A stretch of DNA of 56,206 nt from a virus (taxonomy: Duplodnaviria; Caudoviricetes): positions 1 through 56,206 of IMG/VR virus record IMGVR_UViG_3300030107_003883, one strand, 5' to 3'. The notes under the pieces were generated by a model. That model had not been told where the DNA came from and searched no databases. It worked only from the letters and a program-made list of their open reading frames with translations. The position numbers and the translations under genes are program-made. Positions 32,082 through 45,576 of this stretch are shown here, in pieces (within the stretch, counting starts at the first letter, position 1; each line of letters begins with the position of its first letter).

Positions 32082-32116
32082 CGTTCGTTTTTAACGAAAA
32101 CTTAGCCCTATATATA

Positions 32117-33124: not shown

Positions 33125-33317
33125 TTATTTGCTCCCACTTTCTTAGGCTTTTTGACCCCACCTCTTTTCTTGCGCACTTTGCACATATCAGAGCCATTCT
33201 TATTCCCAGGAGATAAGATGCGTCCCCTATCCATAAATAAGCCGCCTTCTGGGCGTGAGATTGAGTCCCACATTGAGCGCATACTTTTATTATCTTCTTT
33301 CCTAGATGAACTACCAT
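33084..33317 (-). CDS. Zinc-finger protein
   Basis: CAQC...CAKC; GAGG RBS; overlaps the tail of the upstream gene. Confidence 0.55.
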   Translation of the reverse strand: MVVHLGKKIIKVCAQCGTQSHAQKAAYLWIGDASYLLGIRMALICAKCARKEVGSKSLRKWEQINETTVRLPEELGI

Positions 33318-33618
33318 TTTCTTCCTCTATCATACCCCATAAGAGCATTAAATATACTATACAGTCCGTAATTCGACCAGTTACGTCCTCTCTTTGTGAT
33401 TTATGGCCTTTTACATAAGCAGCAATACCATCTACATGCTTAAGTGTATATGTCATAAGTACTTTCTTCTTGTCTATTTCAAGCAAATTTGCCACTCTAT
33501 TAAAGTTAGCAAATACATCTTGATCATCATGAGCATATTCTTTTTGACCTTCATCTCTTATAGATATAACATTTTCTAGTATTGTATCCATAAGTTTATG
33601 CATTTCTTTATGAGTCAT
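33121..33618 (-). CDS. All-alpha nucleotide pyrophosphohydrolase-like protein (Nmad1/DUF1599-like)
   Basis: GQKEYAH...FANF...KHVD...EDVTGRITDCIVYLMLL. Confidence 0.6.
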   Translation of the reverse strand: MTHKEMHKLMDTILENVISIRDEGQKEYAHDDQDVFANFNRVANLLEIDKKKVLMTYTLKHVDGIAAYVKGHKSQREDVTGRITDCIVYLMLLWGMIEEENGSSSRKEDNKSMRSMWDSISRPEGGLFMDRGRILSPGNKNGSDMCKVRKKRGGVKKPKKVGANK

Positions 33619-35353
33619 CTCTAATAATCCTTACGTTATCTAGTTTAAGTCTTACTTGCAAGTGTTCTCTTTCTCTATTAGCATCAGATCTTAGATCTAA
33701 GTACTCTAGTTCTCCAGTCGTCATAGAACGTCTAGGAACAAGAGAAAGTAACTTATTCAAGTTGTACGCTACTCTAAATGAGCCTTTAGTAGAATGTAAA
33801 CCCATACCTTCAGTCATTGCAGTCTTATTTATTTCACTTACCGCAAATACTATGATATTATGCTTAACAGCTAGCTCCATCATTGCCTGTGATGCCTCTT
33901 CTACGCGCATATTAGGGTCTTTAAGGTTACTTTGAAACAAACCCATGTGATCTATCACAACAACTCTAGGCTTAACAGGAAGAGTCAATATAGTCTTTTC
34001 TAAATCTCTTGCAGATATAGGTGAATAATTCACTTGTAACCATTGAAACTTCTTATCTTGACCATTGTTATGATTTGCATAATGATCTCTTAACTGTTCT
34101 TCAGTCCAGCCATTTTCTATTTGTACAAATCTAGACCATATTTGTCTTGGAGACATCTCCATTTCTAAGAAATATGTTGGCACTTTAAATGCACACATCC
34201 AGTTTTGCAATAACATAGTCTTCATAGACTTAGGTGGTGCTTGTAAAACAACAACTTCACCTGGATATATAGGATAGTCACCTCCATATAACTGCCCTAA
34301 ATTTAAGGGAGTTACATCAGATTTGTAAAATTCTATAAGGTTAGTTTCCATGTCTGAAGCATCCATCATAGTCTGGCTTTTCTTATTTCTATACAGTCTA
34401 CATGTATTCTTGCAATATTCGTCCATAATAGGGTCACTACAGCCATATTTATTGCCTTGACCACCATGACCTTCATATGCACTAGTAACGATGCTATCCA
34501 TCTCTTTTTCAGAGAAAGGTTTATCATTGCCACTTACCTGTACTCTCCATACTTCCATAAGCATTCTTACTGTTTCTTCAGGATAAAGCCAACGAAACCA
34601 AGCACTTAGCCTTAATGCTACCATATGTCTTTTACCCATAGGTATAGACTGTATCATACTGCTAATACAAGGATACAAAGAAGGATCAGGAGATCTTCCT
34701 TGTGATAATTGTATGCTTTGAGTCTGTTTCTTTTCCTCTTCGCTTATAATTACATTAAATACAGGTTGTCCCTCCATAACTATATCACTCATAGGTTGAG
34801 GTTTCTTTGCATACTCTATAATAGCATTAACATCTCCTTCCAACATACCTTTTTGTAGCTCAACTTTATATGAGCCTGATTTATTATTTTTGGTATTTGG
34901 AACTCTTATTAATCTAAGCTTGTCTGTTACTGATGGATCAGCATATTCAAATATACCATGCTTTGTAAGTACAGTTTTTATCTTTGTATGCAGGTTCTTA
35001 TGTGGTCTATATGTAAATGAAGTACTAGGTATGTGAAAGTGGAATCCTGTTCCGCTAAAGAATGCTTTATATGGCACATCTAAGTCTTCAAGCATTAATT
35101 TTAGGCCAATAGCTTTCTTTTGTGCGTCATCAGGATTACCACCATCAACATCTAATATAAACTCTTCAGGTATATATATTTTACCATCATAACCAGACAA
35201 TTTCTTGTTTTCAGCAAAGTAGTCCTTAACATCATTATCGTATTCATATAATGACATAAAGGTGTCACTATGAAGATCCATCCAATTTACTATATTAGAT
35301 GAATCTTCAAAGTAATGTCTTCTTGATAAGCCGAACGCAAATTCTCTAATCAT
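33608..35353 (-). CDS. Primase-polymerase (AEP-type)/helicase fusion
   Basis: FILDVD, FSGTGFHFH and RLIRVPNT primase motifs; PCI...GKRH PriCT-like region; C-terminal RecA-like APPKSMKT, LEMEMS and VVVIDH. Confidence 0.8.
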   Translation of the reverse strand: MIREFAFGLSRRHYFEDSSNIVNWMDLHSDTFMSLYEYDNDVKDYFAENKKLSGYDGKIYIPEEFILDVDGGNPDDAQKKAIGLKLMLEDLDVPYKAFFSGTGFHFHIPSTSFTYRPHKNLHTKIKTVLTKHGIFEYADPSVTDKLRLIRVPNTKNNKSGSYKVELQKGMLEGDVNAIIEYAKKPQPMSDIVMEGQPVFNVIISEEEKKQTQSIQLSQGRSPDPSLYPCISSMIQSIPMGKRHMVALRLSAWFRWLYPEETVRMLMEVWRVQVSGNDKPFSEKEMDSIVTSAYEGHGGQGNKYGCSDPIMDEYCKNTCRLYRNKKSQTMMDASDMETNLIEFYKSDVTPLNLGQLYGGDYPIYPGEVVVLQAPPKSMKTMLLQNWMCAFKVPTYFLEMEMSPRQIWSRFVQIENGWTEEQLRDHYANHNNGQDKKFQWLQVNYSPISARDLEKTILTLPVKPRVVVIDHMGLFQSNLKDPNMRVEEASQAMMELAVKHNIIVFAVSEINKTAMTEGMGLHSTKGSFRVAYNLNKLLSLVPRRSMTTGELEYLDLRSDANREREHLQVRLKLDNVRIIRDDS

Positions 35354-35484
35354 TTGTTGTTACCTACCTCTCCTCTGGCTATTACTGTAGTTTTACATCT
35401 TTTACAGGTTTTTTGATGATTATGCATTCCCCAGAGTTTACCGCATTTACATCTTATGTGTTTTTCAAGCTCTTTATCCACCAT
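35350..35484 (-). CDS. Small zinc-ribbon protein (44 aa; not in ORF track)
   Basis: IRCKCGKLW...CKRCK; AAGGAG RBS; ATGA overlap with the primase gene. Confidence 0.65.
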   Translation of the reverse strand: MVDKELEKHIRCKCGKLWGMHNHQKTCKRCKTTVIARGEVGNNK

Positions 35485-35674
35485 CTTCTATCTCCTTATC
35501 ATTTATAAAAGTATTAGTTTCAAGCACAAGTCTTAATGCTTCACACCATCCTCTATTTTTCATAAAGTCAAAGTATAACAATCCTTCATCTCCGCTCATA
35601 TTCATTTTTACATAATCTTCATCTACTCTTTCACAATGTTTTAAGACCCTCTTTATTTGTAATGGGCTTAACAT
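35474..35674 (-). CDS. Hypothetical protein
   Basis: Coupled ORF; NRGWCEALRLVL. Confidence 0.6.
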   Translation of the reverse strand: MLSPLQIKRVLKHCERVDEDYVKMNMSGDEGLLYFDFMKNRGWCEALRLVLETNTFINDKEIEDGG

Positions 35675-36069
35675 ATGAAATCCACCAATGCTTTAACTAG
35701 CTCAGGAACTGCAATCTTCGGTAAATAAATAGGATTATGCTTGTCATCGCCAGTAACAGCAATACCATTAGCAGTAGAAGTAATTGTAAAGCATTTCCTG
35801 GGGTCTTTAGTAGCATTATCAATAGGCCATAAACTTTCTGCTTTAGGCCTTTCTTTGGGTTCTGGTACATCTGGGGTAGGTATCTCTTTTGCATGGTTTA
35901 GTCCTAACTCTTCTAATATTTTATCAGTTGCTTGCCTCATTCTAACTTTATTAGCTATAATGCCATCATTGCACATATGTAATAAGTCTTTTTGAAACAA
36001 TTTATACTTTCCGTTAACCACTTTCCAATGCAAATTATCTTTACCACACCCTCTATTACATGTTATCAT
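35668..36069 (-). CDS. Hypothetical protein with N-terminal Cys/His zinc motif
   Basis: CNRGCG...HMC; GGAGAG RBS. Confidence 0.6.
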   Translation of the reverse strand: MITCNRGCGKDNLHWKVVNGKYKLFQKDLLHMCNDGIIANKVRMRQATDKILEELGLNHAKEIPTPDVPEPKERPKAESLWPIDNATKDPRKCFTITSTANGIAVTGDDKHNPIYLPKIAVPELVKALVDFIC

Positions 36070-36103
36070 ATTCTCTCCGATGTTAGTAAGTTAATTCATA
36101 TAA

Positions 36104-36142
36104 AGCATTAAGGGGCCCCCGTTCAAAGACCCCTTATAATGC
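36104..36142 (-). terminator. GC-rich hairpin downstream of the SSB gene
   Basis: Minus-strand gcattat-aaggggtc / ggcccctt-aatgc stem followed by a U-rich tract. Confidence 0.45.
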
Positions 36143-36170
36143 AAACTCCTATAACCGCCTTCTCAACCAT

Positions 36171-36692
36171 TTAGAAGATAGGAGCCTCTACTTGTTCTGT
36201 TGTGCCATTAGCAGGAGCAGGTGTAGATCCGTCTTTTACATAATCTGTATAATACTTCTCTGCACGCCCTTTCCAATAGTCAACATCATTTTCAGTAAAT
36301 TGCTCAATAATGTTCTTAAACTCAGTTGGTGCACATTGCTTTAAAGCACGTGTGTATTCACCATCTTTATGAAAGTATACATTAAGCTCTTTCCCTGTTA
36401 AATGACTAGTATCATCATCAATCTTAACAACCACATTTCCATCTGGTCCGTCAAGTCCATCAGTAATACCAGCGTTAGCAAATCTAAAGACTTGTCCTAT
36501 TGCGAACTCTTCTCCATTGCTGCCTTTCTTTTCATAGACTCTCATGGTAAAGTTCTCAGGATAGTCGTTAAACCACACATCTAAGAATTTAGTGCCATTA
36601 TAGTCACCGTACTTCGCTTTTGAAACAGTAAGTGTATGCCAACCAGTTGTATAGTTAGTACCACCACCTTTTTTTACTGTGAGTGTTCTCAT
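36171..36692 (-). CDS. Single-stranded DNA-binding protein (phage OB-fold)
   Basis: TGWHTLTVSKA strand; acidic tail EQVEAPIF; follows the NTPase as in NTPase/SSB recombination modules. Confidence 0.65.
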   Translation of the reverse strand: MRTLTVKKGGGTNYTTGWHTLTVSKAKYGDYNGTKFLDVWFNDYPENFTMRVYEKKGSNGEEFAIGQVFRFANAGITDGLDGPDGNVVVKIDDDTSHLTGKELNVYFHKDGEYTRALKQCAPTEFKNIIEQFTENDVDYWKGRAEKYYTDYVKDGSTPAPANGTTEQVEAPIF

Positions 36693-37432
36693 TTAGTTTC
36701 TCCATTTACTAGTGTTTGCAAACTATAGGTCTTACCTGAACCTGGTGAACCTATTATTAGTACTTTAGCTCCATCAAAGCCCTTGTCACGAGCTGCTGAT
36801 ATAACTTTACCATAATCTTGGTCCATTTCAGCTTCTAATAAGCCTGTTCTATCCTTAGCATGATCATATTTTTCACTACGTGCAGTAACCCATAGATACT
36901 TTCTATTAGTTCCAGATACTACAGTTTTAGTATAAAATACAAAATCAAACCACTTGCTGATATCGTCTTTACTACTGCCATCTATATAAGGTATAACCTT
37001 ATTTCCATCATCCATTGTTTGAATTTTAGAATGACAGTTGCATATTACTATACCAGGGATTTTACTTACGAATGATAGAGCTCCATCAAGTTTATTCTTT
37101 AATTGACCCCATCCTTGTAACTTCATTTTACCATCTTTGTCAGATAGTTCTCTCATATACTTCTTAGATAACTCTGAGAATGTATCCAGAACTAAAGCAT
37201 CAATCTTGGTATCAGTTTGTGCTGTAACAACTGAGCGTTGTTCATCTATTTCTAGATCACCAATATTAACTTTAACAGTTTTGGTCTCTTCCTTATACAG
37301 CTTACCTATAGTATTTTGAAATTGACTAAAGGTACCAGGCTGCATGACTGGAAAGCCAAACTGCTTGTGAATATATTCTTTTGATCCGAGAGTTTGAGAA
37401 CCATGTTCTAGATCGAACATTAGTGTTTTCAT
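36689..37432 (-). CDS. Phage AAA_24/Sak4-like NTPase, circularly permuted (start likely 37432)
   Basis: AGGAGAG RBS 8 nt upstream; FDLEHG, LVLDTFSEL, LQGWG, CNCH and AKDR motifs; Walker A GSPGSGKT at the C-terminus. Confidence 0.75.
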   Translation of the reverse strand: MKTLMFDLEHGSQTLGSKEYIHKQFGFPVMQPGTFSQFQNTIGKLYKEETKTVKVNIGDLEIDEQRSVVTAQTDTKIDALVLDTFSELSKKYMRELSDKDGKMKLQGWGQLKNKLDGALSFVSKIPGIVICNCHSKIQTMDDGNKVIPYIDGSSKDDISKWFDFVFYTKTVVSGTNRKYLWVTARSEKYDHAKDRTGLLEAEMDQDYGKVISAARDKGFDGAKVLIIGSPGSGKTYSLQTLVNGETK

Positions 37433-37461
37433 GCGCATTTCTCTCCTTTTGTTGCGTGGTA

Positions 37462-37491
37462 AATATACCACTGTTTTTCTTTCCTTTGCAA
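37462..37491 (-). promoter_or_regulatory. Sigma70-type promoter for the replication genes
   Basis: TTGCAA-18-TATATT with extended -10 TG, just upstream of the RBS. Confidence 0.6.
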
Positions 37492-37499
37492 GGAAAACT

Positions 37500-37822
37500 T
37501 AGCGAGTGTCATATAGGCTAAGGTATTGGCTATAAGATATGCCAGGATTGCGCCCGTACGACCTTACGGTATCGTCTCTCCACTCGCTATAATACTTTGA
37601 AGAGAGGAAGAAACCTCGAAGTAACTCCCCCTCTTCTTGCATAACAAGGCTTAACATAACATGGATAATCACCACACAAATGGAGTGTTAAGCTATGTGT
37701 ATTTTGCTGCTTTGGGTTAGGTGAGCCAACCTATAATGGCCTGAGGGCCCAAATATCGAGCTAGCTTAAACTATAGCCTTACTCCCGCTAGGTTTCCAGA
37801 CTATGGTCCACAAATGGAACCC
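37500..37822 (-). ncRNA. Tandem run of about six stem-closed structured RNA elements
   Basis: Closing stems: tagcgagtg/cactcgcta (37500-37589), gaagag/ctcttc (37599-37636), gcttaaca/tgttaagc (37649-37693), tttggg/cccaaa (37711-37753), ctagc/gctag (37761-37791), ggtttcca/tggaacc (37791-37821). Confidence 0.5.
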
Positions 37823-38476
37823 TCATATCTTTCTTAGCATCATAGTAGGAAAATGAAAGCTAAAGTTACTATTAAACGGTTCATCGGTTATGAACTTGCG
37901 AACGGAATTAGCAATAAAGCTTCCACTCATATTTGAGCAGTAACTTGTTGCTTTAGCGTTGCAAGGCTCCTCATCCCCTTGTTCATCAGAGTACCAATGT
38001 TTTTTATATTCAGCAAGTGTTGGCTTTTTGAATATATATTGTTGATAGTGTTCAGCTCCCATTCTCCCGTCTATGATGCATTTTGGCTTAGTCGTAGGGT
38101 TAGAGCATATTGTAGTGACCGCTTCCAACCTTGACCCCATCGAATCAAACCCTAGTATGACTATGTCATTATGATCCTGGAAATAGAATGTATCAAAGTC
38201 ACCATGATGAGTATCTATTACAAGTTCTCGACTTATATTTAATAAATGGCTCTTCAAAGCATTAACTTTGTTACTGCCAATATCTCCTTGAGTATACTGA
38301 GATACTCCGATATTAACATCTTCTACTATATCACGATCATATAGATGAAAATATAGTCCACCCATACGTGCCAATTGAGTGGCTGCGGCACTCCCGATAG
38401 CACCGCAACCTAGTATATGAAATGTGTAGTCATATACCCCTGTGAATAATCCTTCATTTCTTGCTGTTAAGCTCAT
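37823..38476 (-). CDS. E1/ThiF-family ubiquitin-like activating enzyme (start likely 38476)
   Basis: ILGCGAIGS, YDRDIVEDVN, KVNAL, GFDS and DGRMG motifs; candidate catalytic Cys in EEPCNAKAT; ATGA overlap with the JAB gene. Confidence 0.92.
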   Translation of the reverse strand: MSLTARNEGLFTGVYDYTFHILGCGAIGSAAATQLARMGGLYFHLYDRDIVEDVNIGVSQYTQGDIGSNKVNALKSHLLNISRELVIDTHHGDFDTFYFQDHNDIVILGFDSMGSRLEAVTTICSNPTTKPKCIIDGRMGAEHYQQYIFKKPTLAEYKKHWYSDEQGDEEPCNAKATSYCSNMSGSFIANSVRKFITDEPFNSNFSFHFPTMMLRKI

Positions 38477-39384
38477 ACTCCATACCCCCATCCTATACCA
38501 GCTTGATCTAATGTGTCGCCTGTTTGCTTATTTACAACAAAGTCTGATGGCATAGCATGTAATAAAGATTCAAGAGCATTTTCTACTACAAGAGTTACTT
38601 CATATATACTTTTACTATCTACAAGCTCTTTATTTAAATCATCTATTGACATTTTATAAGCTGCATAAGTCATTGATCCTGCTACTACTTCAGATATAAC
38701 CTCGTCAACTTCTTCAAGGATTTCGAAATATGTCTTTGGCTTACCAGACAAGCCTGTCTGACCAGCTGTGGTATGAAAAGGGAGTCGCTCTTGGCGAGGG
38801 TCCTCCGCAGCTTCTTTAAGCAGATCAGTATGATTTCCATTATTCTTTCTCCATGAATAACCTGTATATGTAGGAACTTTATATTCAGGCTTAGTACACA
38901 TTGCTGCTACATTCTCTTTAATCTTTTTGCTTATACGTGCTTTAGGATTAATTATAGTTAGATCAACATCTTCATGTACTTCTACAGGCTTCCATACAGA
39001 TACTCTAAACTTATATTCTTCCTTAAGGTTAACAACTAAGGCAAATGAGAAATCTCCTTGATCATATTCTTTTATAGCTGTTAAATCTGTGCCAGACCAG
39101 AATGCGTTCATTGTATGATGACTATGCCACCAACAAAATCTAAAGTTCTTTTTACCCAATCTTTTAGCCTCTTTAGTATAATATATAGCTAGCTCATCTT
39201 TATCAAGTACAGTATTCCCAGCGCTTATAACTTGCTTAAGTATTACAGGGTTTTCTAAATGCCAATCACCATCTTTATCTTCTACCATTACAGACATTCC
39301 ACCTATTTCAGATTGATGCTCTGTATGGGCTTCTTCTGCGTATCCCAGGATAGTATCCCAGTCTTTCTGTTTTATGTAAAACAT
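38473..39384 (-). CDS. JAB/JAMM (MPN+) metalloisopeptidase
   Basis: Complete JAMM motif E26...H87-x-H89-x7-S97-x2-D100. Confidence 0.9.
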   Translation of the reverse strand: MFYIKQKDWDTILGYAEEAHTEHQSEIGGMSVMVEDKDGDWHLENPVILKQVISAGNTVLDKDELAIYYTKEAKRLGKKNFRFCWWHSHHTMNAFWSGTDLTAIKEYDQGDFSFALVVNLKEEYKFRVSVWKPVEVHEDVDLTIINPKARISKKIKENVAAMCTKPEYKVPTYTGYSWRKNNGNHTDLLKEAAEDPRQERLPFHTTAGQTGLSGKPKTYFEILEEVDEVISEVVAGSMTYAAYKMSIDDLNKELVDSKSIYEVTLVVENALESLLHAMPSDFVVNKQTGDTLDQAGIGWGYGV

Positions 39385-39412
39385 ATGTGTCTCCTTTTAT
39401 TTTATAATTTTA

Positions 39413-39534
39413 TGAGGGAAGCTATACTGCTTACGTTTCTCGGTGTCCACAGCTCCAATTAACTTCCCTCAACCATTTAGGCTAATCTAACCTTGGAGAG
39501 GAAATTCCGACGTTTTCTCTAGATTAGACCCAAA
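39413..39534 (-). ncRNA. Two intergenic stem-loops between the E2 and JAB genes
   Basis: tgagggaag/cttccctca (39413-39471) and ctaatcta/tagattag stems. Confidence 0.45.
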
Positions 39535-39535
39535 T

Positions 39536-41548
39536 CTATAAGTTATTTGCACTACCATTTCTAATAGCCCATTGAATAGTTCTTTCTTCTATTGTCATTT
39601 CTGCTTCAGGTGTTGTTGTTTGAACAGGTGTACGAGGAACAGATGTCGCAAAAGGATCATCATCTATTAAAGTATCCAAAGGGTCAAATGGAGTTCGATC
39701 TAATATATCATTAGCTTCTTGCTCTATTTGATTTATTTGATCTTGAGTTAGCTCAGGATTATCAGGTACAGGTGGAAGTTCAACGTTATAACCTATTACA
39801 TTCTCTCTATTCCATTCAAAATCACTTGTAAGATCTAAGTATACATTTTCATAGAAATGTTCAAAGTTAACAATAGGCATATTGCAAAGATTTCTTAGCT
39901 TTCTTCTATAAGTAGGTGTATCTTCTAATTCACCACCTGGCTCTCTACCTTCTTTAGCAAGCCATCTTATAATAACCCTATGCATTCTGATATAGTTATT
40001 ATATGAATCAAATATTCGCTCTCTAGTACGTGGAGTTGTCCATAAGCTATCTTCAATAGAATCTATATAGACATCATTCTCAGTAGACAGTATATTATCT
40101 TTAATAGAAAGTTCTAGCATTATACCAAGAATACCTTCTTCTTCAGGTGTCTTATCATCCTTTAATGTAAGAGATATGTTATTATACTGCTCACAATTAG
40201 TGTTAAAAGTACACTTTGCACATGGAAGATTAGCATCAGTTATATGATTATAATATTCTAATTTTCTATTTAAATATTCTTCAGCACCTATAGTATAACT
40301 ATTAGTATTGCTTATACGATAGCTATGATAAAATACATTTCTAGCATGATCATGTGCTTCATCAAATAACTTGCGACTTAAGTTACAACTTAACAATGTA
40401 TTATAAGTATAATTGCCATTTCCTTCAAAGAATGTTCTATATACAATATCATTATCACCTGATTCTGTTAAGAATGTATCAAATACTATGTTTCTGCCAT
40501 GAGACTTACTATAACTTATCCTATTTAAAGGATTAGTTTGAGGTACATAATAGTTTGTAGCCCATCCTACAAGAGTAGTTATATGTGCTAATATATCTAC
40601 ATTCATAATAGAAGCCCTTATTGCATTTTTCATACTGCCAAGACATACATTACCAGATTTTACATCATCACCAGCATAGTATCTATATTTATCATCACCT
40701 TGACTTATATATGGATGTCTATTTAGTCCAAAAGAATCTAAATATAAAGCTTCTAAGAAATGAGTTGCATTACTAGGAGGTGCAGCTTGCAAGAACTCTT
40801 CTCTTCCCCAATGTCTACTTATCAATGGTAATAAGAATACTCCTGATGCAATATATACGTCACCTATAGTATGGTTAAATCTTTTAGTTTCATTTCCTAT
40901 TATTATATGAGTACGCATATTTGCATTCTTTATTTTTACCATAAATAATACAATATAATCCCTTGTTTCAGATACATCACTAGGACCTATAAAATGAGCA
41001 TTGCCTCCATAGCTATATTGTCTTCTTAACATAGCTTTATTAGCACAAGTTTCCATTACTCTACATTGTATTTCTACATGAGGATACATCTCTTTAGCTA
41101 CCTCTAACTGACTGATAATACTAGACTTAACCTTGTCAAACTCTTCTTCAAATTGATCTGTATTATCCTGCCATTTGATGCCGTTAGACTTTAAGTCCTT
41201 TAGTTTATATTCAAGGCTTAACAAGCTTGATTTAAAACCAGACTCTCTCCATCTATAGTCTTGTATTCTTTTAAAGATAGACTCTACACCTCTTGGCTTC
41301 ATATCGTGCCTTAATACATGTTCGTTATAGGCTCTTTTTATTTCATTATAACCACCAGGTTTTAGAGTAAAGCTTTTAGATACACCTAAATTACAGTTAT
41401 ATCTTTCTTTTAATGTTTCTAAAGCCTCAATAATTTCTCCTTGAGGTCCTACAAGTATATTATCAATCAACTCAGACACATTACATTCAAATGTTTCTAT
41501 GTCCACAGAGTTTGCTTCTATCATTTTAAAATTCATTGTTGTCTCCAA
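39536..41548 (-). CDS. Large multidomain protein with a prokaryotic E2 (ubiquitin-conjugating)-like core
   Basis: H278-P-Y-I-S...G-N-V-C302-L-G followed by two helices; located between Ubl and JAB. Confidence 0.65.
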   Translation of the reverse strand: METTMNFKMIEANSVDIETFECNVSELIDNILVGPQGEIIEALETLKERYNCNLGVSKSFTLKPGGYNEIKRAYNEHVLRHDMKPRGVESIFKRIQDYRWRESGFKSSLLSLEYKLKDLKSNGIKWQDNTDQFEEEFDKVKSSIISQLEVAKEMYPHVEIQCRVMETCANKAMLRRQYSYGGNAHFIGPSDVSETRDYIVLFMVKIKNANMRTHIIIGNETKRFNHTIGDVYIASGVFLLPLISRHWGREEFLQAAPPSNATHFLEALYLDSFGLNRHPYISQGDDKYRYYAGDDVKSGNVCLGSMKNAIRASIMNVDILAHITTLVGWATNYYVPQTNPLNRISYSKSHGRNIVFDTFLTESGDNDIVYRTFFEGNGNYTYNTLLSCNLSRKLFDEAHDHARNVFYHSYRISNTNSYTIGAEEYLNRKLEYYNHITDANLPCAKCTFNTNCEQYNNISLTLKDDKTPEEEGILGIMLELSIKDNILSTENDVYIDSIEDSLWTTPRTRERIFDSYNNYIRMHRVIIRWLAKEGREPGGELEDTPTYRRKLRNLCNMPIVNFEHFYENVYLDLTSDFEWNRENVIGYNVELPPVPDNPELTQDQINQIEQEANDILDRTPFDPLDTLIDDDPFATSVPRTPVQTTTPEAEMTIEERTIQWAIRNGSANNL

Positions 41549-41645
41549 GTTATAATGGGGTAAAATATTACAATTCAGTTAGGCTTGCATAAAAGGAGCT
41601 TTATCCCGAGCATTGACCACCTTACCCCATAATTGTTATAATATC

Positions 41646-41852
41646 TTACTGACCACCAGTCTTATTACTATTTACATTAGCAACAATGTCCCCATCTTGC
41701 AATTGATAGTCATCTGACTGATCTGTTGCATTTACAGCTACACTTGACCCAGCAGGCATATCAAGTTCAGTTCTTAATGAGCCTATAGTTTGACTAGTTA
41801 CTACTTTTTCAACGAATCCACCGCCACTAAGTACTTTTATTGTTATTGACAT
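41646..41852 (-). CDS. Ubiquitin-like beta-grasp protein with capped C-terminus (...KTGG-Q)
   Basis: 68 aa; ITIKVL...TIGSLRTEL...VAVN...YQLQDGDIV...GGQ; AAGGAGG RBS. Confidence 0.85.
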   Translation of the reverse strand: MSITIKVLSGGGFVEKVVTSQTIGSLRTELDMPAGSSVAVNATDQSDDYQLQDGDIVANVNSNKTGGQ

Positions 41853-42035
41853 TTAAGCCTCCTTATTGATTGTTTCTTTATTACGAAGCGCTTTCCATGC
41901 ACTCTTAGGCATATATTTCGCTTCCTGTTTATTTACTACCTTCTCAGCGTCTTCATCACGTACCCGCAGCAATGTACCTACAGGTAATCGCTTCCAATAC
42001 TGTGAATTTTCTACTACAGTTTTAATTGTTTTCAT
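41853..42035 (-). CDS. Hypothetical protein
   Basis: GGAGG RBS; LRVRDEDAEKVV...YMPKSAWK. Confidence 0.65.
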   Translation of the reverse strand: MKTIKTVVENSQYWKRLPVGTLLRVRDEDAEKVVNKQEAKYMPKSAWKALRNKETINKEA

Positions 42036-42105
42036 TTATTGCCTCCAGTTATAGTAGACCTGCCAACTCCTTACGAATCAGCAGGCCTACATGAGAAGTG
42101 GTCAA

Positions 42106-42594
42106 CTACTCTTCATCCACACTAGGATAAGTACATTCTTTTGTCCAGGTATTGGGATCGCCTAGTCCATCTCCATCAAGATCAAGGTACCACATTGTTG
42201 GTCCCTCGCCATTACAGACCCCACATTCATCTCGCCAGTTTTCATAGCAAGTATCATCTTTATCATCAGAGTTTGTGACCCATCTTCCTCTTTCGAGTGG
42301 TTGACTTACATGGAGATCAGTGGTATATTCGTCACCATTCCACCAAAATGTATGTCCCTCACCCTTAGCACGATGTTGTATTCTGAACGCTTCAACAAAT
42401 GGCATATCATCCAAGTTTATCTGTACAGGATCAACGTGCGTATATTTAAACATAGAGTGATCAATTACAGGCTCTTCTTCCATTTGTTTAGCCTTATTTA
42501 ACACTCTGTTAGTTATATTACTGTTATCTTTTGCTTCAACATCACTACATCCCACAAATATCATCATTACTATCATTAATAGATTGCTTCTCAT
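42106..42594 (-). CDS. Lipoprotein with Cys/Asp-rich metal-binding-like tail
   Basis: Signal peptide with lipobox FVG-C; FVEAF...FWWNGDEYTTD domain; DECGVC and WYLDLDGDGLGDP. Confidence 0.7.
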   Translation of the reverse strand: MRSNLLMIVMMIFVGCSDVEAKDNSNITNRVLNKAKQMEEEPVIDHSMFKYTHVDPVQINLDDMPFVEAFRIQHRAKGEGHTFWWNGDEYTTDLHVSQPLERGRWVTNSDDKDDTCYENWRDECGVCNGEGPTMWYLDLDGDGLGDPNTWTKECTYPSVDEE

Positions 42595-42715
42595 TCTTAT
42601 CTCCAGTTTTATTTATTATATTGTTAATTGAATTAAGCATATTCTTAGTCTTGATATACTCTTTGTACATCTCCTCTTCAAACTTGCTTACAGGTACTAC
42701 AAGTGGCTCTTTCAT
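42545..42715 (-). CDS. Hypothetical 56-aa protein (not in ORF track)
   Basis: ATGA coupling; fills the gap. Confidence 0.5.
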   Translation of the reverse strand: MKEPLVVPVSKFEEEMYKEYIKTKNMLNSINNIINKTGDKNEKQSINDSNDDICGM

Positions 42716-42906
42716 AGCACATCATATGGTCTAGGAAAATTAAGCTCAAAGGTTGTTAGATTACCTTTAGGATCTACATCTCCCCAAGCCTTATAATAAC
42801 ACAGTCCAAAGAACCATATTCTAATTTGCGATCCCATTAGCTGGTCGTTTATAAAGCCGTCCACTCCCAGGACTACGCGGTTCATCAAGATTAAATACAT
42901 CTTCAT
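42712..42906 (-). CDS. Hypothetical protein
   Basis: AGGAGGAG RBS; ATGA coupling. Confidence 0.6.
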   Translation of the reverse strand: MKMYLILMNRVVLGVDGFINDQLMGSQIRIWFFGLCYYKAWGDVDPKGNLTTFELNFPRPYDVL

Positions 42907-43253
42907 TCTCCTCCTTCATGTCTAGTATTGCCATTATTTTGCACTCTAGGTGTAATAACTGTTCCATTACCGTTAGTTTTAATTTGCTTTGCTCCAAGTT
43001 GTCTCCTTTTCATTGCAGTTTTAAGCTTATCTGACCGTGTCTTATGAGCATTATATGTTAATTTAGCATCATATACTACTGACAGTTTAGCTAAGCGTTC
43101 TTGTGTGATTTTGATTAGTTTCTCTGTAACCTCTATACCATTCTCAGTCTTGTTACCTATCCCTATCTTAACAAACTTATTTAACTGTTCTTGGTAGAAG
43201 TTTACAACCCATAACTTTGACCCATTTATTGCTATATCCATTAGTATCCCCAT
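42903..43253 (-). CDS. Hypothetical basic protein
   Basis: Coupled ORF in the early block. Confidence 0.6.
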   Translation of the reverse strand: MGILMDIAINGSKLWVVNFYQEQLNKFVKIGIGNKTENGIEVTEKLIKITQERLAKLSVVYDAKLTYNAHKTRSDKLKTAMKRRQLGAKQIKTNGNGTVITPRVQNNGNTRHEGGE

Positions 43254-43360
43254 ATATATCTATGTGTTTCCATTACAAACCGTATCAAGGCATAAACCAT
43301 GACACCTAAGGACATGCCATAAATTATGACAGTCCAAAACATTTTATCACTCTTCTTCAT
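43241..43360 (-). CDS. Small membrane peptide (39 aa; not in ORF track)
   Basis: MKKSDKMFWTVIIYGMSLGVMVYALIRFV...; ATGA coupling. Confidence 0.55.
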   Translation of the reverse strand: MKKSDKMFWTVIIYGMSLGVMVYALIRFVMETHRYIWGY

Positions 43361-43497
43361 AACACTACCTTAACCCATATCGCTATCGTAAATGATAACA
43401 GTATATTCATAAAGAACACAGCTATAAATCCTACTGGTTCTCTTTCTTCTTTAGTAAATAACCATTCATAAACTACATTTAATTTCTCTAGTATCAT
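43357..43497 (-). CDS. Small membrane peptide (46 aa; not in ORF track)
   Basis: GGAGG RBS; C-terminal TM segment VGFIAVFFMNILLSFTIAIWV. Confidence 0.6.
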   Translation of the reverse strand: MILEKLNVVYEWLFTKEEREPVGFIAVFFMNILLSFTIAIWVKVVL

Positions 43498-43532
43498 TGA
43501 TACCTCCATATTTATTGTTAGTGTGAATTTAA

Positions 43533-43889
43533 TAAGAGAGTCGTCAATATCCTTACTTCATTGTGCTTTTATTGTCACCTAGGGCTTACACCTAGCTATC
43601 CATGACGGTAATACACAAATGGCTTGACCCTTCCATTACTCTCTTAAATTATACATAGTAGAGGTGAAGTAGGGTTCATCATCATACAAGGCTCCGTTCC
43701 CTTTCGCTTGCCAGCTAATCGTTCACTACCAAGTATTTTTACCTCTTACAGGGGTTAACCTGATTCCGTACCCAAAAGAGGACTATGTAATTCAATTATA
43801 GACTATACGTACACGACTGGTGCTTTTCAACCCAGTCCACCACATTCCTACCACTAACCATCTTAACGATGTTCCCTCTGTATAATCTA
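43533..43889 (-). ncRNA. Three consecutive multibranch structured RNA elements downstream of the tRNA
   Basis: Closing stems taagagagt/actctctta (43533-43646), tacatagt/actatgta (43652-43789) and tagactatac/gtataatcta (43799-43889), each with internal hairpins. Confidence 0.55.
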
Positions 43890-43902
43890 ATGTTAATTGT
43901 TG

Positions 43903-43975
43903 AGGCGGTGACAGGAGTCGAACCTGCTATCTCTTGGTTATGAGCCAAGCGTGTAAACCATTTCACTCCACCGCT
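43903..43975 (-). tRNA. tRNA-Met (anticodon CAT); initiator, elongator or Ile2 identity unresolved
   Basis: AGCGGTG..CACCGCC acceptor with A1:C72 mismatch; CTTGG-CTCATAA-CCAAG anticodon arm; GCAGG-TTCGACT-CCTGT T arm; CCA not encoded. Confidence 0.85.
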
Positions 43976-43985
43976 ATTGAATGTT

Positions 43986-44058
43986 TGATAGGCAGTCCAG
44001 TACTCAGGGGGAGCTGAATACAACGTGGTTCATTACTCCACTATAGACCACCATATCA
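43986..44058 (-). ncRNA. Three-way-junction RNA element upstream of the tRNA
   Basis: Minus strand: ugaua-u-gguggucu.../...gacugcc-uauca closing stem, gugg/ccac hairpin and guauucag/cugaguac hairpin, with several G-U pairs. Confidence 0.5.
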
Positions 44059-44135
44059 GGTCACAAGGGAACACATCCCAATCCTATAAGTTTATGTGTA
44101 TGTTCATTCTAATAGAGACACACACACCCATACAT

Positions 44136-44165
44136 GTAATAAGGGGAGAATTAACTCCCCATTAC
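44136..44165 (-). terminator. Hairpin after the first early gene
   Basis: gtaat-ggggag/ctcccc-attac stem just after the stop at 44170. Confidence 0.45.
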
Positions 44166-44169
44166 ACTA

Positions 44170-44481
44170 CTAAACCTCCACTCTACGTCTTAAACTATCA
44201 TTTTCTGCCTTTAACCTTGCAAGCTCATCCTTGGTATCATCTGATGTAGACTTAATTTCCCTCATCACTGCACCAATGTCAGTCAATGCCGCTGCTAAGT
44301 TAGCCTTAGTCTCTACCTTCTCTAATGTTTGTGCTACCAATGCCATCTCTTGCACCCTACCTGATGCTGCCAATGCTACCATCACAGACTCCATTGCGTC
44401 TCTGTTCTCAGGCTTCATGTCTATGCTATCAGTCTTACCAATACTCTTGCTTGCACCAGCTATATCTTTCCAGTTAGCCAT
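44170..44481 (-). CDS. First gene of the leftward block; helical/coiled-coil hypothetical protein
   Basis: AAGGAG RBS; 103 aa. Confidence 0.75.
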   Translation of the reverse strand: MANWKDIAGASKSIGKTDSIDMKPENRDAMESVMVALAASGRVQEMALVAQTLEKVETKANLAAALTDIGAVMREIKSTSDDTKDELARLKAENDSLRRRVEV

Positions 44482-44651
44482 CTTCTTTACTCCTTAAGTT
44501 TCTAGTTTTAGTTTACACTTCATAAATAACCTCTATATTGAAATCAAAAATAACGTAATCGTGATAACGTTCAATCACCCCATAGGGGTGTACCTCTTCT
44601 AAAAGACCACACGATAAAATGCCACAATTTTTAAAAGTTTTTCTAAAAAGC

Positions 44652-44681
44652 TTGATAGGAGGTGTAAATACCCTGTATATT
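44652..44681 (+). promoter_or_regulatory. Sigma70-type promoter, rightward block
   Basis: TTGATA-18-TATATT upstream of 44717. Confidence 0.45.
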
Positions 44682-44716
44682 GTGATGTAAAACACAAAGC
44701 TATTATTGGGAGTATA

Positions 44717-44986
44717 ATGAAGACTAAGAAAATAACATATAGGCAGTTAATGGACTATATAGAGCAGTTAGAGTTACAGGTTCAGAACAATCAAAAGGCA
44801 GTATATGATGTATCTGGGCTGTTAAATGAGTACGTAGAAATGAAGAAAGATGTTAAGAAACTACAGAATCATATGCAAAAGCGTTTTGGATCTGATGCAG
44901 AGATTCCGACTCGTTGGTCGGTATTTTCTAAGTTCATAAAAAACAAGTACTTACAGCTTAAGAAAGTTCTTGTATTTGGAAAATAA
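44717..44986 (+). CDS. Hypothetical protein
   Basis: GGGAG RBS; 89 aa. Confidence 0.7.
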   Translation: MKTKKITYRQLMDYIEQLELQVQNNQKAVYDVSGLLNEYVEMKKDVKKLQNHMQKRFGSDAEIPTRWSVFSKFIKNKYLQLKKVLVFGK

Positions 44987-44998
44987 ACCTAGTAAACT
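44970..44998 (+). promoter_or_regulatory. Sigma70-type promoter
   Basis: TTGTAT-17-TAAACT upstream of the AAGGAGG RBS of 45035. Confidence 0.5.
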
Positions 44999-45034
44999 AC
45001 TACTAGTAACTACGCTTAATATAAAGGAGGTCAC

Positions 45035-45220
45035 ATGAAAGTTTATACTTTAACAATAGTGTATGATGATGAGACTGATGAGATAGAGTATTTAAGCGAG
45101 GAGATTGAAGGTAGCGCAGAAAGCATTCTTGAGGAATGTGGCGCTATAACAAGGGGAGACGAAAACGATAGCGATGAAATAGAGATTAGTACAGGCTTCA
45201 ACATAATAGGAGAAGCTTAA
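45035..45220 (+). CDS. Small, highly acidic protein
   Basis: AAGGAGG RBS; D/E-rich, 61 aa. Confidence 0.7.
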   Translation: MKVYTLTIVYDDETDEIEYLSEEIEGSAESILEECGAITRGDENDSDEIEISTGFNIIGEA

Positions 45221-45259
45221 TAAAACGCTAAAGCGTTTTGATTCTCGAAAGGATAAAGA

Positions 45260-45421
45260 GTGGAGAAAGAAAAGGATGAATCTCGTAGTGGAGGTCTTGG
45301 GGACACTCTTGCGAGAGTTATTCATAGTACTACTGGCATTAAGCCTTGTGATAATTGTACTAGGCGTAAAGAAAAATTAAATAAATGGTTCCCATATACT
45401 AAAAGGAGTGTTGACACATGA
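45260..45421 (+). CDS. Small conserved-type phage protein (GLGDT...CxxC..RKEKLN..FPY; 53 aa; not in ORF track)
   Basis: AAGGA RBS + GTG; ATGA overlap with the next ORF. Confidence 0.65.
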   Translation: MEKEKDESRSGGLGDTLARVIHSTTGIKPCDNCTRRKEKLNKWFPYTKRSVDT

Positions 45422-45576
45422 ACGGGAAAGATCAAGCTGTCCATATATGACCATATTCGGGTAAACCTCATCCGGTGGATGAGAAACATAGCATTCGAGG
45501 TGCTGATATACATGGAGAAGAAACAAATTCGGTTGAATATCGGTATCCAAAAACGGTATACAAAGAAGGGAAGTAA
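45418..45576 (+). CDS. Candidate selenoprotein, 52 aa with UGA at codon 11 (MNGKDQAVHI-U-PYSGKPHPV...)
   Basis: AAAAGGAG RBS; ATGA overlap upstream and TAATG overlap downstream; in-frame TGA at 45448-45450; SECIS-like hairpin. Confidence 0.6.
45467..45483 (+). promoter_or_regulatory. SECIS-like hairpin
   Basis: CUCAUCC-GGU-GGAUGAG; loop begins 23 nt after the UGA. Confidence 0.6.

What the first reader, a model, noticed from the sequence alone, without database searches (positions are those of the whole stretch)
37823..41852. Phage-encoded ubiquitin-like conjugation cassette (Ubl-E2-JAB-E1)
Seen: four co-oriented genes in transcription order. These are a 68-aa beta-grasp protein ending KTGG-Q, a protein with an HP...GNVCLG E2-like core (C302), a JAB with an intact E..HxHx7SxxD motif, and a ThiF/E1 with GxGxxG and a candidate catalytic Cys. 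Known: this is the component set and order of bacterial Bil antiphage systems (BilA Ubl, BilB E2, BilC JAB, BilD E1), and E1/E2/JAB also operate in type II CBASS (Cap2/Cap3). Inference: here the cassette sits in the early/middle block of an apparently lytic phage. It may tag host or phage proteins, counter a host Ubl defence, or attack co-infecting phages. No ThiG, MoaE or cysteine synthase partner is present, which argues against a plain sulfur-carrier role.
Basis: partly seen in the sequence, partly recalled or inferred. Interest (0 to 1): 0.93.

Follow-up and report, generated by a model that had tools for sequence, protein, structure and literature searches.

The report
Marine phage ubiquitin-like tagging cassette
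A complete 56-kb marine phage, like its many uncultured relatives, carries next to its DNA-replication genes four linked genes that look like a small ubiquitin-like protein-tagging kit, but nobody has tested what it tags.

Summary
The four co-oriented minus-strand genes exist as described. They are a 68-aa ThiS/MoaD-like protein ending KTGG-Q, a 670-aa (probably 666-aa) orphan protein, a JAB peptidase with an intact metal motif, and a minimal ThiF-type E1 of 222 (probably 217) aa.

Ubl, big protein, JAB and E1 keep this order in all 7 independent related lineages I recovered, wherever the flank exists. The big protein has diverged to 25% identity.

All 18 tag homologues keep K-x-G-G and then carry 1-33 extra residues, so all need trimming.

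Cys302 of the big protein is invariant in 79 of 79 relatives, inside an HP[YF]...C-x-G core. The modelled domain's nearest solved folds are mostly E2, UEV and RWD domains, but weakly (Z at most 5.6). No sequence profile links it to any E2 family.

It is not a Bil, Cap2/Cap3 or PRTRC member. The E1 has no extra domains and falls below every curated cut-off.

No ThiG, MoaE, cysteine synthase, rhodanese or PP-loop gene is in the genome.

Best reading (0.58): an autonomous phage Ubl-conjugation system with a large E2/E3-like carrier and an unknown target.

Earlier notes of this scan describe similar phage and plasmid cassettes on other DNA. I found no paper on them.

The parts
41646..41852 (-). 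Ubl precursor, 68 aa. It is a ThiS/MoaD-like small protein ending K64-T-G66-G67 plus one extra residue (Q68).
   Evidence: ORF. Pfam ThiS 0.0058, below cut-off. ThiS is matched by 11 of 18 family members, best 9.4e-5. K64, G66 and G67 are invariant in 18 of 18, and every member carries 1-33 residues after GG. It lies upstream of the big protein in 6 of 6 lineages that have the upstream flank.
39536..41548 (-). E2L, a 670-aa ORF (likely 666 aa from the ATG at 41536). Its parts are a conserved helical N-terminal domain (about 1-130), a UBC/RWD-like core (about 131-345) with H278-P-Y280 and invariant C302, a four-Cys module (C388, C443, C446, C452), a fast-evolving helical region (about 466-645) and a conserved C-terminal tail (646-670).
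   Evidence: ORF, start. 37 homologues and 309 representatives. No family found in Pfam, PHROGs, PADLOC or NCBIfam for the window protein, and none in Pfam for 38 plus 77 relatives. C302, C388 and C446 are in 79 of 79, P279 in 77, H278 in 65 (F in 12), G304 in 78 and W329 in 77. Domain model pLDDT 83.6. Nearest folds are E2/UEV/RWD at Z 5.6 or less. ESM Atlas named neighbours all carry Prok-E2_D.
38473..39384 (-). JAB/MPN+ metallopeptidase, 303 aa. The catalytic domain is about 1-140 with E26, H87, H89, S97 and D100. The C-terminal half is uncharacterised.
   Evidence: ORF and motif. Prok-JAB 6.7e-5, 23.2 bits against a cut-off of 25. Four PADLOC JAB models at 1e-3 to 6e-3. 46-56% identical in the related viral loci and 41% in L019. 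RBS GGAG 6 nt before the ATG.
37823..38491 (-). Minimal ThiF/MoeB-type E1, 222-aa ORF (likely 217 aa from the ATG at 38476, overlapping the JAB stop as ATGA). It has a single adenylation domain with GxGxxG, D52, K75, D116 and an invariant P176-C177.
   Evidence: Pfam ThiF 2.3e-16. 29 PADLOC CBASS E1-E2 models match; the 25 listed cover residues between 4 and 123. NCBIfam hits are all below cut-off. PDB profile hits are MccB, UBA5, UBA6, ThiF, MoeB, Cap2 and BubCD. Invariant residues, start. 1338 clusters of homologues, of which the 120 listed are 182-232 aa.
41537..41645 (-). Spacer between the Ubl gene and the E2L start. It carries the E2L ribosome-binding site.
   Evidence: Sequence read. 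No promoter or terminator call on the minus strand stands out from shuffles (36 promoter-like sites found against 28.9 expected).

Best explanation
This is a self-contained, phage-encoded ubiquitin-like protein-conjugation system, made together with the phage's replication and recombination genes.

Proposed steps:
1. The 68-aa tag is made as a precursor. The JAB peptidase removes what follows Gly67. This is inferred from the invariant GG plus variable tails and the intact JAB motif.
2. The minimal ThiF-type E1, presumably a homodimer, adenylates Gly67 and may hold the tag on the invariant Cys177. The domain and residues are shown. The chemistry is inferred.
3. The tag passes to the invariant Cys302 of the large protein E2L, whose core is predicted to have a UBC/RWD-like fold. 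This step is inferred.
4. E2L acts as a combined E2 and E3. Its conserved N-terminal domain and C-terminal tail would hold the machinery. Its fast-evolving helical region would choose the target, a host or phage protein, whose lysine receives the tag. This step is speculative.
5. The JAB can also remove the tag again.

The target is unknown. The constant position beside Sak4, the primase-helicase and RusA points to an early role in takeover, replication or counter-defence, not to virion assembly.
For: - Real genes with the right catalytic residues.
- Linkage: the order Ubl, E2L, JAB, E1 recurs in all 7 independent lineages (L002; L003; L004/5/6/10; L007/8/9; L011; L012; L019), wherever the flank exists. 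Identity to the window is E1 47-84%, JAB 41-56% and Ubl 43-78%. E2L is 25-36% in the viral loci and is found only by profile in L019.
- Translational coupling of JAB to E1 through an ATGA overlap.
- All 18 tag homologues need C-terminal trimming.
- C302 is invariant in 79 of 79 distant relatives, within HP[YF]...C-x-G.
- Fold: the domain model has pLDDT 83.6. In an all-against-48,161-chain search, 26 of the 50 best rows name an E2, UBC or UEV protein in their title and 2 more name RWD domains. The top rows are 9gy4_F and 8aaf_e, both Z 5.6, over chain ranges I recall as the Listerin/Ltn1 RWD domain, then UBE2F at Z 5.2 with 135 residues aligned. The whole-protein model gave the same two chains for residues 128-336.
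- ESM Atlas: the four family-bearing rows shown all carry PF14460 Prok-E2_D, scores 0.87-0.89 with 175-177 shared features.
- No sulfur-pathway partner and no CD-NTase in the genome, with controls positive.
- The conservation mosaic of E2L fits a constant machinery part plus a variable specificity part.
Against: - No profile method links E2L to any E2. Pfam, PADLOC, PHROGs and NCBIfam gave nothing. So did Pfam on 38 plus 77 relatives, PF14460 on the six frames at E up to 10, hmmsearch against PDB sequences and hhalign against one bacterial E2/UBC protein, probability 0.16.
- Fold scores are low. Foldseek found nothing at E up to 0.001. The tool warns that Z below 8 may reflect only a common arrangement. 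Actin-capping protein scores as well as the E2s, Z 4.8.
- I could not check residue by residue that C302 sits at the E2 active-site position.
- E2L has five invariant cysteines, so C302 could be a metal or sulfur ligand.
- The E1 has Ser where I recall canonical E1s to have the Arg of the NLxRQ motif (for the residue; the motif is recalled).
- The tag is closest to sulfur carriers.
- No conjugate, thioester or target has been observed.
Confidence: 0.58

Rival explanations
1. Sulfur-carrier pathway. The E1 adenylates the trimmed tag, a host sulfur donor converts it to a thiocarboxylate, and the cysteine-rich E2L uses that sulfur to thiolate a nucleic acid, nucleotide or cofactor during replication.
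For: - The tag is ThiS/MoaD-like: ThiS in 11 of 18 members, with weak PDB hits to SAMP2, MoaD and ThiS.
- The best NCBIfam hit of the E1 is ThiF, 4e-17, below cut-off.
- JAB-trimmed, C-terminally extended sulfur carriers exist (CysO/Mec and QbsE/QbsD, recalled from memory).
- E2L has five invariant cysteines.
- The cassette sits in the replication block.
Against: - The genome has no ThiG, MoaE, PALP, rhodanese or PP-loop ATPase in six-frame searches with positive controls. Host enzymes could still supply some of these.
- The only folds the E2L core resembles are UBC, UEV and RWD, plus capping protein. None of the 50 best rows names a sulfurtransferase in its title.
- E2L evolves fast in its C-terminal half, which is unusual for a metabolic synthase.
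Confidence: 0.17
2. Conjugation without an E2. As in archaeal SAMP or Thermus TtuB systems, the E1 alone attaches the tag. E2L is not a carrier but the main target, a scaffold, or a replication protein that merely travels with the cassette.
For: - The E1 is a bare ThiF-type domain, like E1s that I recall working without an E2.
- Evidence for an E2 fold is weak: Z at most 5.6 and no profile hit.
- crAss-like and Flavobacterium phages keep JAB-E1 pairs next to proteins that are not detectably related to E2L.
Against: - E2L stays linked between the tag gene and the JAB gene in 6 of 6 lineages that have both flanks, even at 25% identity or when found only by profile. In the seventh, L003, the locus begins inside E2L.
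- One Cys in an HP[YF]...C-x-G context is invariant across 79 relatives.
- The language-model neighbours all carry Prok-E2_D.
Confidence: 0.15
3. Peptide-modifying E1, like MccB or PaaA. The E1 activates the C-terminus of the small protein to make a modified peptide or toxin, not a protein tag.
For: The best solved-structure sequence hits of the E1 profile are MccB at 5.5e-10, with PaaA at 4.4e-8.
Against: - Those hits cover only the nucleotide-binding half, profile positions 12-125. UBA5 scores the same, 7.2e-10.
- The substrate is a conserved 68-aa ThiS-like protein ending GG, not a short peptide.
- The JAB and the E2L linkage have no place in this scheme.
Confidence: 0.07

Closest known systems
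BilABCD anti-phage systems of bacteria (BilA Ubl, BilB E2, BilC JAB, BilD E1)
   Same: - Same four roles and the same gene order, Ubl-E2-DUB-E1 (passages of 10.1101/2023.09.26.559546).
- The DUB pre-processes a tag that carries residues after the Gly. Twelve BilA homologues have 2-9 aa overhangs (passages of 10.1101/2023.09.04.556158).
   Different: - This cassette is encoded by a phage, not by a bacterial genome.
- The E1 is about 217 aa, without the inactive adenylation domain, the CYS insertion or the four-Cys Zn site described for BilD.
- The carrier is 666-670 aa and shows no detectable sequence relation to any E2.
- I recall that PADLOC 2.0.0 may hold no Bil model. I did not check this.
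PRTRC cassette (ParB-Related, ThiF-Related Cassette; NCBIfam TIGR03735 and TIGR03736), and the mobile Ubl-JAB-E1-E2 operons of class 6d in Iyer et al. 2006
   Same: - A mobile-element-borne set of Ubl, E2-like, JAB and small ThiF-type E1, untested experimentally. Class 6d is described in passages of PMC1779556. The selfish-element idea is in passages of PMC3417536.
- The nearest named ESM Atlas clusters carry Prok-E2_D, one of them with alpha-hel2.
   Different: - The curated cut-offs are far from met. PRTRC_ThiF scores 27.3 bits against 144.75, and PRTRC_A scores 13.6 against 101.8.
- There is no hit for the tag or for E2L.
- That PRTRC_B carries Prok-E2_D is recalled, not tested.
- ParB was not searched for.
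Type II CBASS Cap2 (E1-E2 fusion) and Cap3 (JAB)
   Same: - The E1 matches 29 PADLOC Cap2 models, best 5.7e-13, and Cap2 chains in the PDB at 8.8e-5.
- A JAB is paired with the E1.
   Different: - E1 and E2 are not fused here.
- A separate Ubl gene is present. In CBASS I recall the CD-NTase itself being conjugated.
- No SMODS/CD-NTase gene is in the genome.
- The matches listed lie within the nucleotide-binding part of the E1, residues 4-123.
JAB-ThiF pairs in the replication modules of crAss-like phages (crAss001 gp77 and gp76) and Flavobacterium phage FpV4
   Same: - The E1 is 28-32% identical over 77-88% of its length.
- In crAss001 a Prok-JAB protein lies directly upstream of the E1, with a protein of 444 aa upstream of that, all inside the replication gene block.
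- FpV4 has the same layout by gene size and position; its upstream proteins were not scanned.
   Different: - No Ubl gene is annotated there, and I did not search for one.
- The upstream protein is not detectably related to E2L, hhalign probability 0.13 and 0.22.
- The crAss001 E1 has an extra N-terminal region of about 160 aa.
Lambda-type tail assembly proteins TAPI (Ubl) and TAPK (JAB plus NlpC)
   Same: A phage-encoded Ubl with a conserved C-terminal Gly sits beside a JAB peptidase (passages of PMC1779556).
   Different: Those systems have no E1 or E2 and sit in the tail gene cluster. Here the cassette is in the replication block on the opposite strand from the virion genes.

Membership tests
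BilABCD | Gene order Ubl, E2, JAB DUB, E1 | tested here: met
   Order on the minus strand. The Bil order comes from passages of 10.1101/2023.09.26.559546.
BilABCD | E1 (BilD) with an inactive adenylation domain, an active adenylation domain, a mobile CYS insertion and a four-Cys Zn site | tested here: not met
   The E1 is 217-222 aa with one ThiF domain spanning residues 25-205. The 120 listed homologues, of 1338, are 182-232 aa. The invariant cysteines are C29, C177 and C185, with no paired CxxC motifs.
BilABCD | E2 (BilB) of the UBC fold with a catalytic Cys | tested here: inconclusive
   The invariant C302 and UBC/UEV/RWD-like fold matches at Z 5.6 or less speak for it. No sequence or profile relation to any E2 was found. 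No BilB sequence was on hand to compare.
BilABCD | Bacterial anti-phage defence system | tested here: not met
   The cassette lies in a complete virus record. Among one genome each of 185,579 species, the only close relative found is a 3.9-kb contig of a MAG.
Type II CBASS (Cap2/Cap3) | E2-E1 fusion protein beside a CD-NTase | tested here: not met
   E1 and E2L are separate genes with the JAB gene between them. SMODS is absent at E up to 1, with controls ringing.
PRTRC cassette | Proteins above the NCBIfam cut-offs of TIGR03735 (A, JAB-like) and TIGR03736 (ThiF) | tested here: not met
   13.6 bits against 101.8, and 27.3 bits against 144.75.
PRTRC cassette | ParB-family partner gene | not tested
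   No ParB search was run. PHROGs named none among the 62 ORFs scanned.
Prok-E2_D (PF14460) | Match to the Pfam model above 25 bits | tested here: not met
   No match in six frames at E up to 10. No match in 38 plus 77 family members. Only the ESM Atlas neighbours carry it, at shares of 14-85%.
ThiF/ThiS thiamine or MoeB/MoaD molybdopterin pathway | E1 above the equivalog cut-off, and a ThiG or MoaE partner present | tested here: not met
   ThiF PRK08644 scores 62.6 bits against 159, and MoeB 25.2 against 266. ThiG and MoaE are absent.
JAB/MPN+ metallopeptidases | The E ... HxH x7 S xx D metal and catalytic motif | tested here: met
   E26, H87, H89, S97 and D100 in the translation. Prok-JAB scores 23.2 bits, just under the cut-off of 25.
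E1 superfamily (ThiF, PF00899) | Match above the gathering score, with the GxGxxG nucleotide loop | tested here: met
   60.1 bits against 28.1. G28, G30 and G33 are invariant.

The most novel reading that the evidence does not exclude
E2L founds a new, sequence-orphan class of large E2/E3 hybrid enzymes. With it, lytic marine phages attach their own ubiquitin-like tag to host proteins early in infection, for example defence or replication and repair factors. That would be host takeover or counter-defence by virus-encoded ubiquitination in bacteria. The fast-evolving C-terminal region of E2L would track the host targets.
Probability: 0.3. Interest if true: 0.85.

Novelty: new variant of a known kind. 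Interest (0 to 1): 0.62.

Why it matters
Ubiquitin-like conjugation in bacteria is known so far as a host weapon against phages (Bil, type II CBASS) or as untested mobile-element operons.

Here the full kit belongs to the phage. It is conserved across a large marine phage group:
- 1338 E1 clusters at 90% identity.
- 309 E2L representatives at 50% identity.

It uses the smallest E1 layout and a carrier protein that no database names.

If it conjugates, it would show that phages also use this chemistry. It would add a new E2-like family and give a compact three-enzyme system for study.

My full-text searches found no paper on phage-encoded E1-E2-JAB-Ubl systems. The library lacks most subscription journals, and bioRxiv supplements were closed.

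Tried and rejected
- **Complex prediction** (E1 + tag 1-67 + E2L as partner). The job was accepted, then lost on the remote machine, and the tool was then declared unavailable. No result exists, so whether E2L binds E1 or the tag was not tested.
- **Cultured phages.** blastn and tblastn against 50,697 phage records gave no match for the region, for E2L or for the JAB.
- **Sequence and fold searches that led nowhere.** hmmsearch of the E2L profile against PDB sequences gave only chance-level hits. Foldseek on both models found nothing at E up to 0.001. The whole-model VIA list was filled by helical hairpins for residues 28-126, which is uninformative.
- **hhalign** of the E2L profile against crAss001 gp78 gave probability 0.13, against the gp78 family 0.22 and against one plasmid E2/UBC protein 0.16. 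No relation was shown. These tests used one or three sequences and are weak.
- **The search for related loci** with the 45-sequence alignment failed because it was too diverse. I replaced it with small subfamily alignments.
- **Plasmid search with the E1** gave only Rossmann-part matches in unrelated ThiF operons.
- **Promoter and terminator scan** gave nothing above the shuffles.
- **RNA libraries.** Contigs of three metatranscriptome runs from two studies lie on parts of the cassette. X18 has a 516-nt contig on the E1 with 3 differences. X20 has pieces at 85-95% likeness on E2L and on the junction of the tag gene and E2L. The tool warns that DNA can be present in such libraries, so this is not evidence of transcription. 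Uncovered parts say nothing.
- **Rejected reading: lambda-type tail assembly Ubl.** The cassette is in the wrong module and has an E1.
- **Rejected reading: host thiamine or molybdopterin gene picked up by the phage.** The E1 is below the equivalog cut-offs and there is no partner gene.

Full report
**What is there.** The window is a whole IMG/VR virus record of 56,206 bp, rated 100% complete by CheckV. Plus-strand genes include:
- a tail fibre protein;
- a 3039-aa ORF;
- small and large terminase, portal and major head protein.

A minus-strand block from about 32,100 to 45,500 holds RusA, a primase-helicase, a Sak4-like annealing protein and the four genes of the finding. No integrase or repressor family was hit among the 62 ORFs scanned with PHROGs.

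Two starts should be moved:
- The big protein probably begins at the ATG at 41536, with GGAG 7 nt upstream, which gives 666 aa. Homologues begin there.
- The E1 probably begins at the ATG at 38476, which overlaps the JAB stop as ATGA. That gives 217 aa, the length of most listed homologues.

I keep the 670 and 222 numbering throughout.

**The three recognisable proteins.**

*E1.*
- It passes Pfam ThiF: 2.3e-16, 60.1 bits against a cut-off of 28.1.
- It stays below every NCBIfam cut-off. The best hit is ThiF PRK08644 at 62.6 bits against 159.
- A profile of 39 homologues hits MccB, UBA5, UBA6, PaaA, ThiF, TcdA, MoeB, Cap2, UBA1 and BubCD in the PDB. In the 33 rows the best stretch lies within profile positions 8-125, the nucleotide-binding half.
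- Invariant residues include the GxGxxG loop, D52, K75, D116, R11 and P176-C177.
- It is a bare adenylation domain with a conserved Cys where I recall the crossover-loop Cys of ThiF and MoeB.

*JAB.* It has E26, H87, H89, S97 and D100. It scores just under the Prok-JAB cut-off, 23.2 against 25 bits.

*Tag.*
- On its own it is sub-threshold for ThiS. ThiS is matched by 11 of 18 family members, best 9.4e-5.
- Its profile gives weak PDB hits to SAMP2, MoaD, ThiS and PF1061. It also gives chance-like hits to lipoyl domains.
- In 18 of 18 homologues K64, G66 and G67 are invariant. None ends at GG. Tails of 1 to 33 residues follow.
- A trimming peptidase is therefore required in every case.

**The big protein (E2L).**
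- No family in Pfam, PHROGs, PADLOC or NCBIfam matches it.
- It has 37 homologues in the word-indexed collection. A profile search of 1.84 billion representatives finds 309 at E up to 0.001, 189 up to 1e-10 and 67 up to 1e-30.
- None of 38 close or 77 distant relatives matches any E2 family in Pfam. The few matches were scattered and below cut-off.
- I aligned 79 sequences: the window, 5 close relatives and the 73 distant ones of at least 420 aa. Shorter ones were dropped. Conservation counts:

| Residue | Present in (of 79) |
|---|---|
| G34, G65, C302, P340, C388, C446 | 79 |
| C443, G304 | 78 |
| P279, W329 | 77 |
| C452 | 73 |
| H278 | 65 (Phe in 12) |

- Subfamilies read HPYIS...TCTGD, HPFIQ...YCWGS and HPYIN...GVCLGD.
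- Median identity to the window, by region:

| Region | Median identity |
|---|---|
| N-terminal domain | 52% |
| Core | 41% |
| Four-Cys region | 23% |
| Following helical region | 18% |
| Last 25 residues | 52% |

**Fold of the core.**
- AlphaFold2 on the whole protein gave pLDDT 74.4. On residues 120-350 with 38 sequences it gave 83.6 and pTM 0.83.
- Foldseek found nothing at E up to 0.001. The TSG101 UEV domain was rank 3, E 0.27.
- VIA-align against 48,161 chains gave only 3 matches at Z of 5 or more:
  - 9gy4_F: Z 5.6, rmsd 3.5, 106 aligned.
  - 8aaf_e: Z 5.6, rmsd 4.1, 121 aligned. I recall these two chain ranges as the Listerin/Ltn1 RWD domain.
  - UBE2F: Z 5.2, rmsd 3.9, 135 aligned.
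- Of the 50 rows shown, 26 name an E2, UBC or UEV protein in the entry title and 2 name RWD domains. Two more, Pex4p and ASFV I215L, I recall to be E2s.
- A second look at Foldseek's best 1000 chains again put E2s and UEVs on top: UBE2K Z 4.8 and UbcH5A Z 4.7. Actin-capping protein scored equally, Z 4.8.
- The order of elements in the model is a long helix, an antiparallel sheet, HPY, C302, then two helices. This is the order I recall for UBC domains. I could not inspect coordinates, so the equivalence of C302 with the E2 active-site Cys is inferred.
- The ESM Atlas search by language-model features gave viral clusters. Among named clusters, the four family-bearing rows shown all carry PF14460 Prok-E2_D in 39, 14, 26 and 85% of members. 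Scores are 0.87-0.89 with 175-177 shared features. The tool calls such scores leads only.
- PF14460 itself does not match the window at E up to 10.

Taken together, a UBC-like core is likely but not established.

**Linkage.** Related loci came from three sources: IMG/VR (L002-L010), subfamily queries (L011 and L012) and one genome per species (L019). Several are copies of one sequence type: L004/5/6/10, and L007/8/9. That leaves 7 independent lineages.

| Gene | Position | Found in |
|---|---|---|
| Tag | just upstream of E2L | 6 of 6 lineages with that flank (L003 starts inside E2L) |
| JAB | downstream of E2L | 7 of 7 lineages (after a 3.3-kb insert in L004/5/10; L006 ends before it) |
| E1 | after the JAB | 6 of 6 lineages with that flank (L012 is cut) |

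These counts rest.

Identity to the window across the related loci:

| Protein | Viral loci L002-L012 | L019 |
|---|---|---|
| E1 | 56-84% | 47% |
| Sak4 | 60-80% | locus ends inside the E1 |
| Tag | 43-78% | 43% |
| JAB | 46-56% | 41% |
| E2L | 25-36% | profile only, 2.2e-56 |

The carrier is thus by far the fastest-evolving part.

Among one genome each of 185,579 species, the only close relative is a 3.9-kb contig in a MAG. The other 8 hits match only 53-91 residues. The family therefore looks viral. Marine and seawater runs from 12 studies hold parts of the stretch. One of them may be the source sample.

**What it is not.**
- The genome has no ThiG, MoaE, PALP, rhodanese, PP-loop ATPase or SMODS gene. 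The same searches rang in 5 to 14 of the 14 control genomes.
- Bil membership fails on the E1 architecture and on the location in a phage.
- Cap2/Cap3 membership fails because E1 and E2L are not fused and there is no CD-NTase.
- PRTRC membership fails on the curated cut-offs.
- It works like these systems but belongs to none of them.

**Wider context.**
- The E1 has 28-32% identical relatives in 81 cultured or assembled phage records: 29 Bacteroides crAss-like, 29 Flavobacterium, 12 uncultured and 4 Xanthomonas.
- In crAss001 the ThiF gene follows a Prok-JAB protein and a 444-aa protein of unknown function, inside the replication module.
- FpV4 has the same layout by gene size and position; its upstream proteins were not scanned.
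- So JAB-E1 pairs next to replication genes are a recurring phage theme.
- Earlier notes of this scan describe Ubl-E2-JAB-E1 cassettes on other phages, prophages and plasmids, and compare them with PRTRC. Those are unchecked AI notes. I tested only the PRTRC cut-offs here.

**Literature seen.**
- Passages of the two Bil preprints.
- Abstract and outline of the Bub preprint PMC11601596.
- Passages of Iyer et al. 2006, PMC1779556.
- Passages of Aravind et al. 2012, PMC3417536.

The passages I read, found by word look-ups, do not describe a lytic-phage-encoded E1-E2-JAB-Ubl system. Five full-text searches found no paper that does.

**Verdict.** The most likely mechanism is Ubl conjugation through a minimal E1 and a large E2/E3-like carrier, with confidence 0.58. 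The sulfur-carrier reading (0.17) and the E2-independent reading (0.15) stay open. The target is unknown. The complex prediction that might have linked E2L to E1 or the tag could not be run.

Noticed in passing
L013:3001-4335 (crAss001 gp78), L014:3376-4677, L015:2551-3813 (FpV4 gp52): The proteins of about 420-445 aa upstream of the JAB-ThiF pairs of crAss-like and Flavobacterium phages share an invariant YMHSH ... C-x-G motif. It recalls the HP[YF] ... C-x-G of E2L. hhalign shows no relation, probability 0.22. These may be an analogous carrier.
   Followed up: partly
L013:5521-6672 (crAss001 gp76): The crAss001 ThiF protein is 383 aa, with the ThiF domain at residues 162-357. The 160-aa N-terminal extension matches no family. 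It could be a fused partner domain.
   Followed up: no
L004, L005, L010: 10043-13358: In one lineage a 3.3-kb insert of small ORFs sits between E2L and the JAB gene. It includes a Cys-rich 239-aa protein. The junction seems to tolerate cargo.
   Followed up: no
window 41853-42035 and 42106-42594, minus strand: Two conserved genes precede the tag gene in 3 of the 6 lineages with that flank (8 loci). One encodes a 60-aa protein whose stop abuts the tag start. The other encodes a 162-aa protein with a lipoprotein-like N-terminus ending FVGC. Both are absent in L011, L012 and L019.
   Followed up: partly
window 39536-39610 (E2L residues 646-670): The last 25 residues of E2L are as conserved as its N-terminal domain. 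E654 is present in 73 of 79. The close family keeps W660, A661, G665, N669 and L670. This may be a docking peptide.
   Followed up: no
window 41537-41645 and 39385-39535: By eye, both spacers in the cassette contain inverted repeats. These are GGGGTAA / TTACCCC, and GGTCTAATCTA / TAGATTAGCC, the latter with one mismatch. I did not fold or test them.
   Followed up: no
window 20086-29205, plus strand: A 3039-aa ORF with no PHROG match sits among the virion genes, followed by a 950-aa ORF that also has no match.
   Followed up: no
window 43902-43975, minus strand: A tRNA-Met gene (anticodon CAT) lies inside the early block. A 75-aa ORF listed at 43796-44023 overlaps it and is probably spurious.
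   Followed up: no
window 37595-37828: Contigs of two RNA-library runs join 37594 to 37829 with 6 other letters between, skipping 234 nt downstream of the E1 gene. They are probably relatives with a shorter spacer that lack part of the 58-aa ORF.
   Followed up: no
L016:4614-8950 and L018:3527-7878: Acinetobacter and Moraxella plasmids carry two adjacent ThiF-family genes followed by an ABC-ATPase gene. In one case this lies next to BREX genes. It is unrelated to the cassette beyond the Rossmann part.
   Followed up: no
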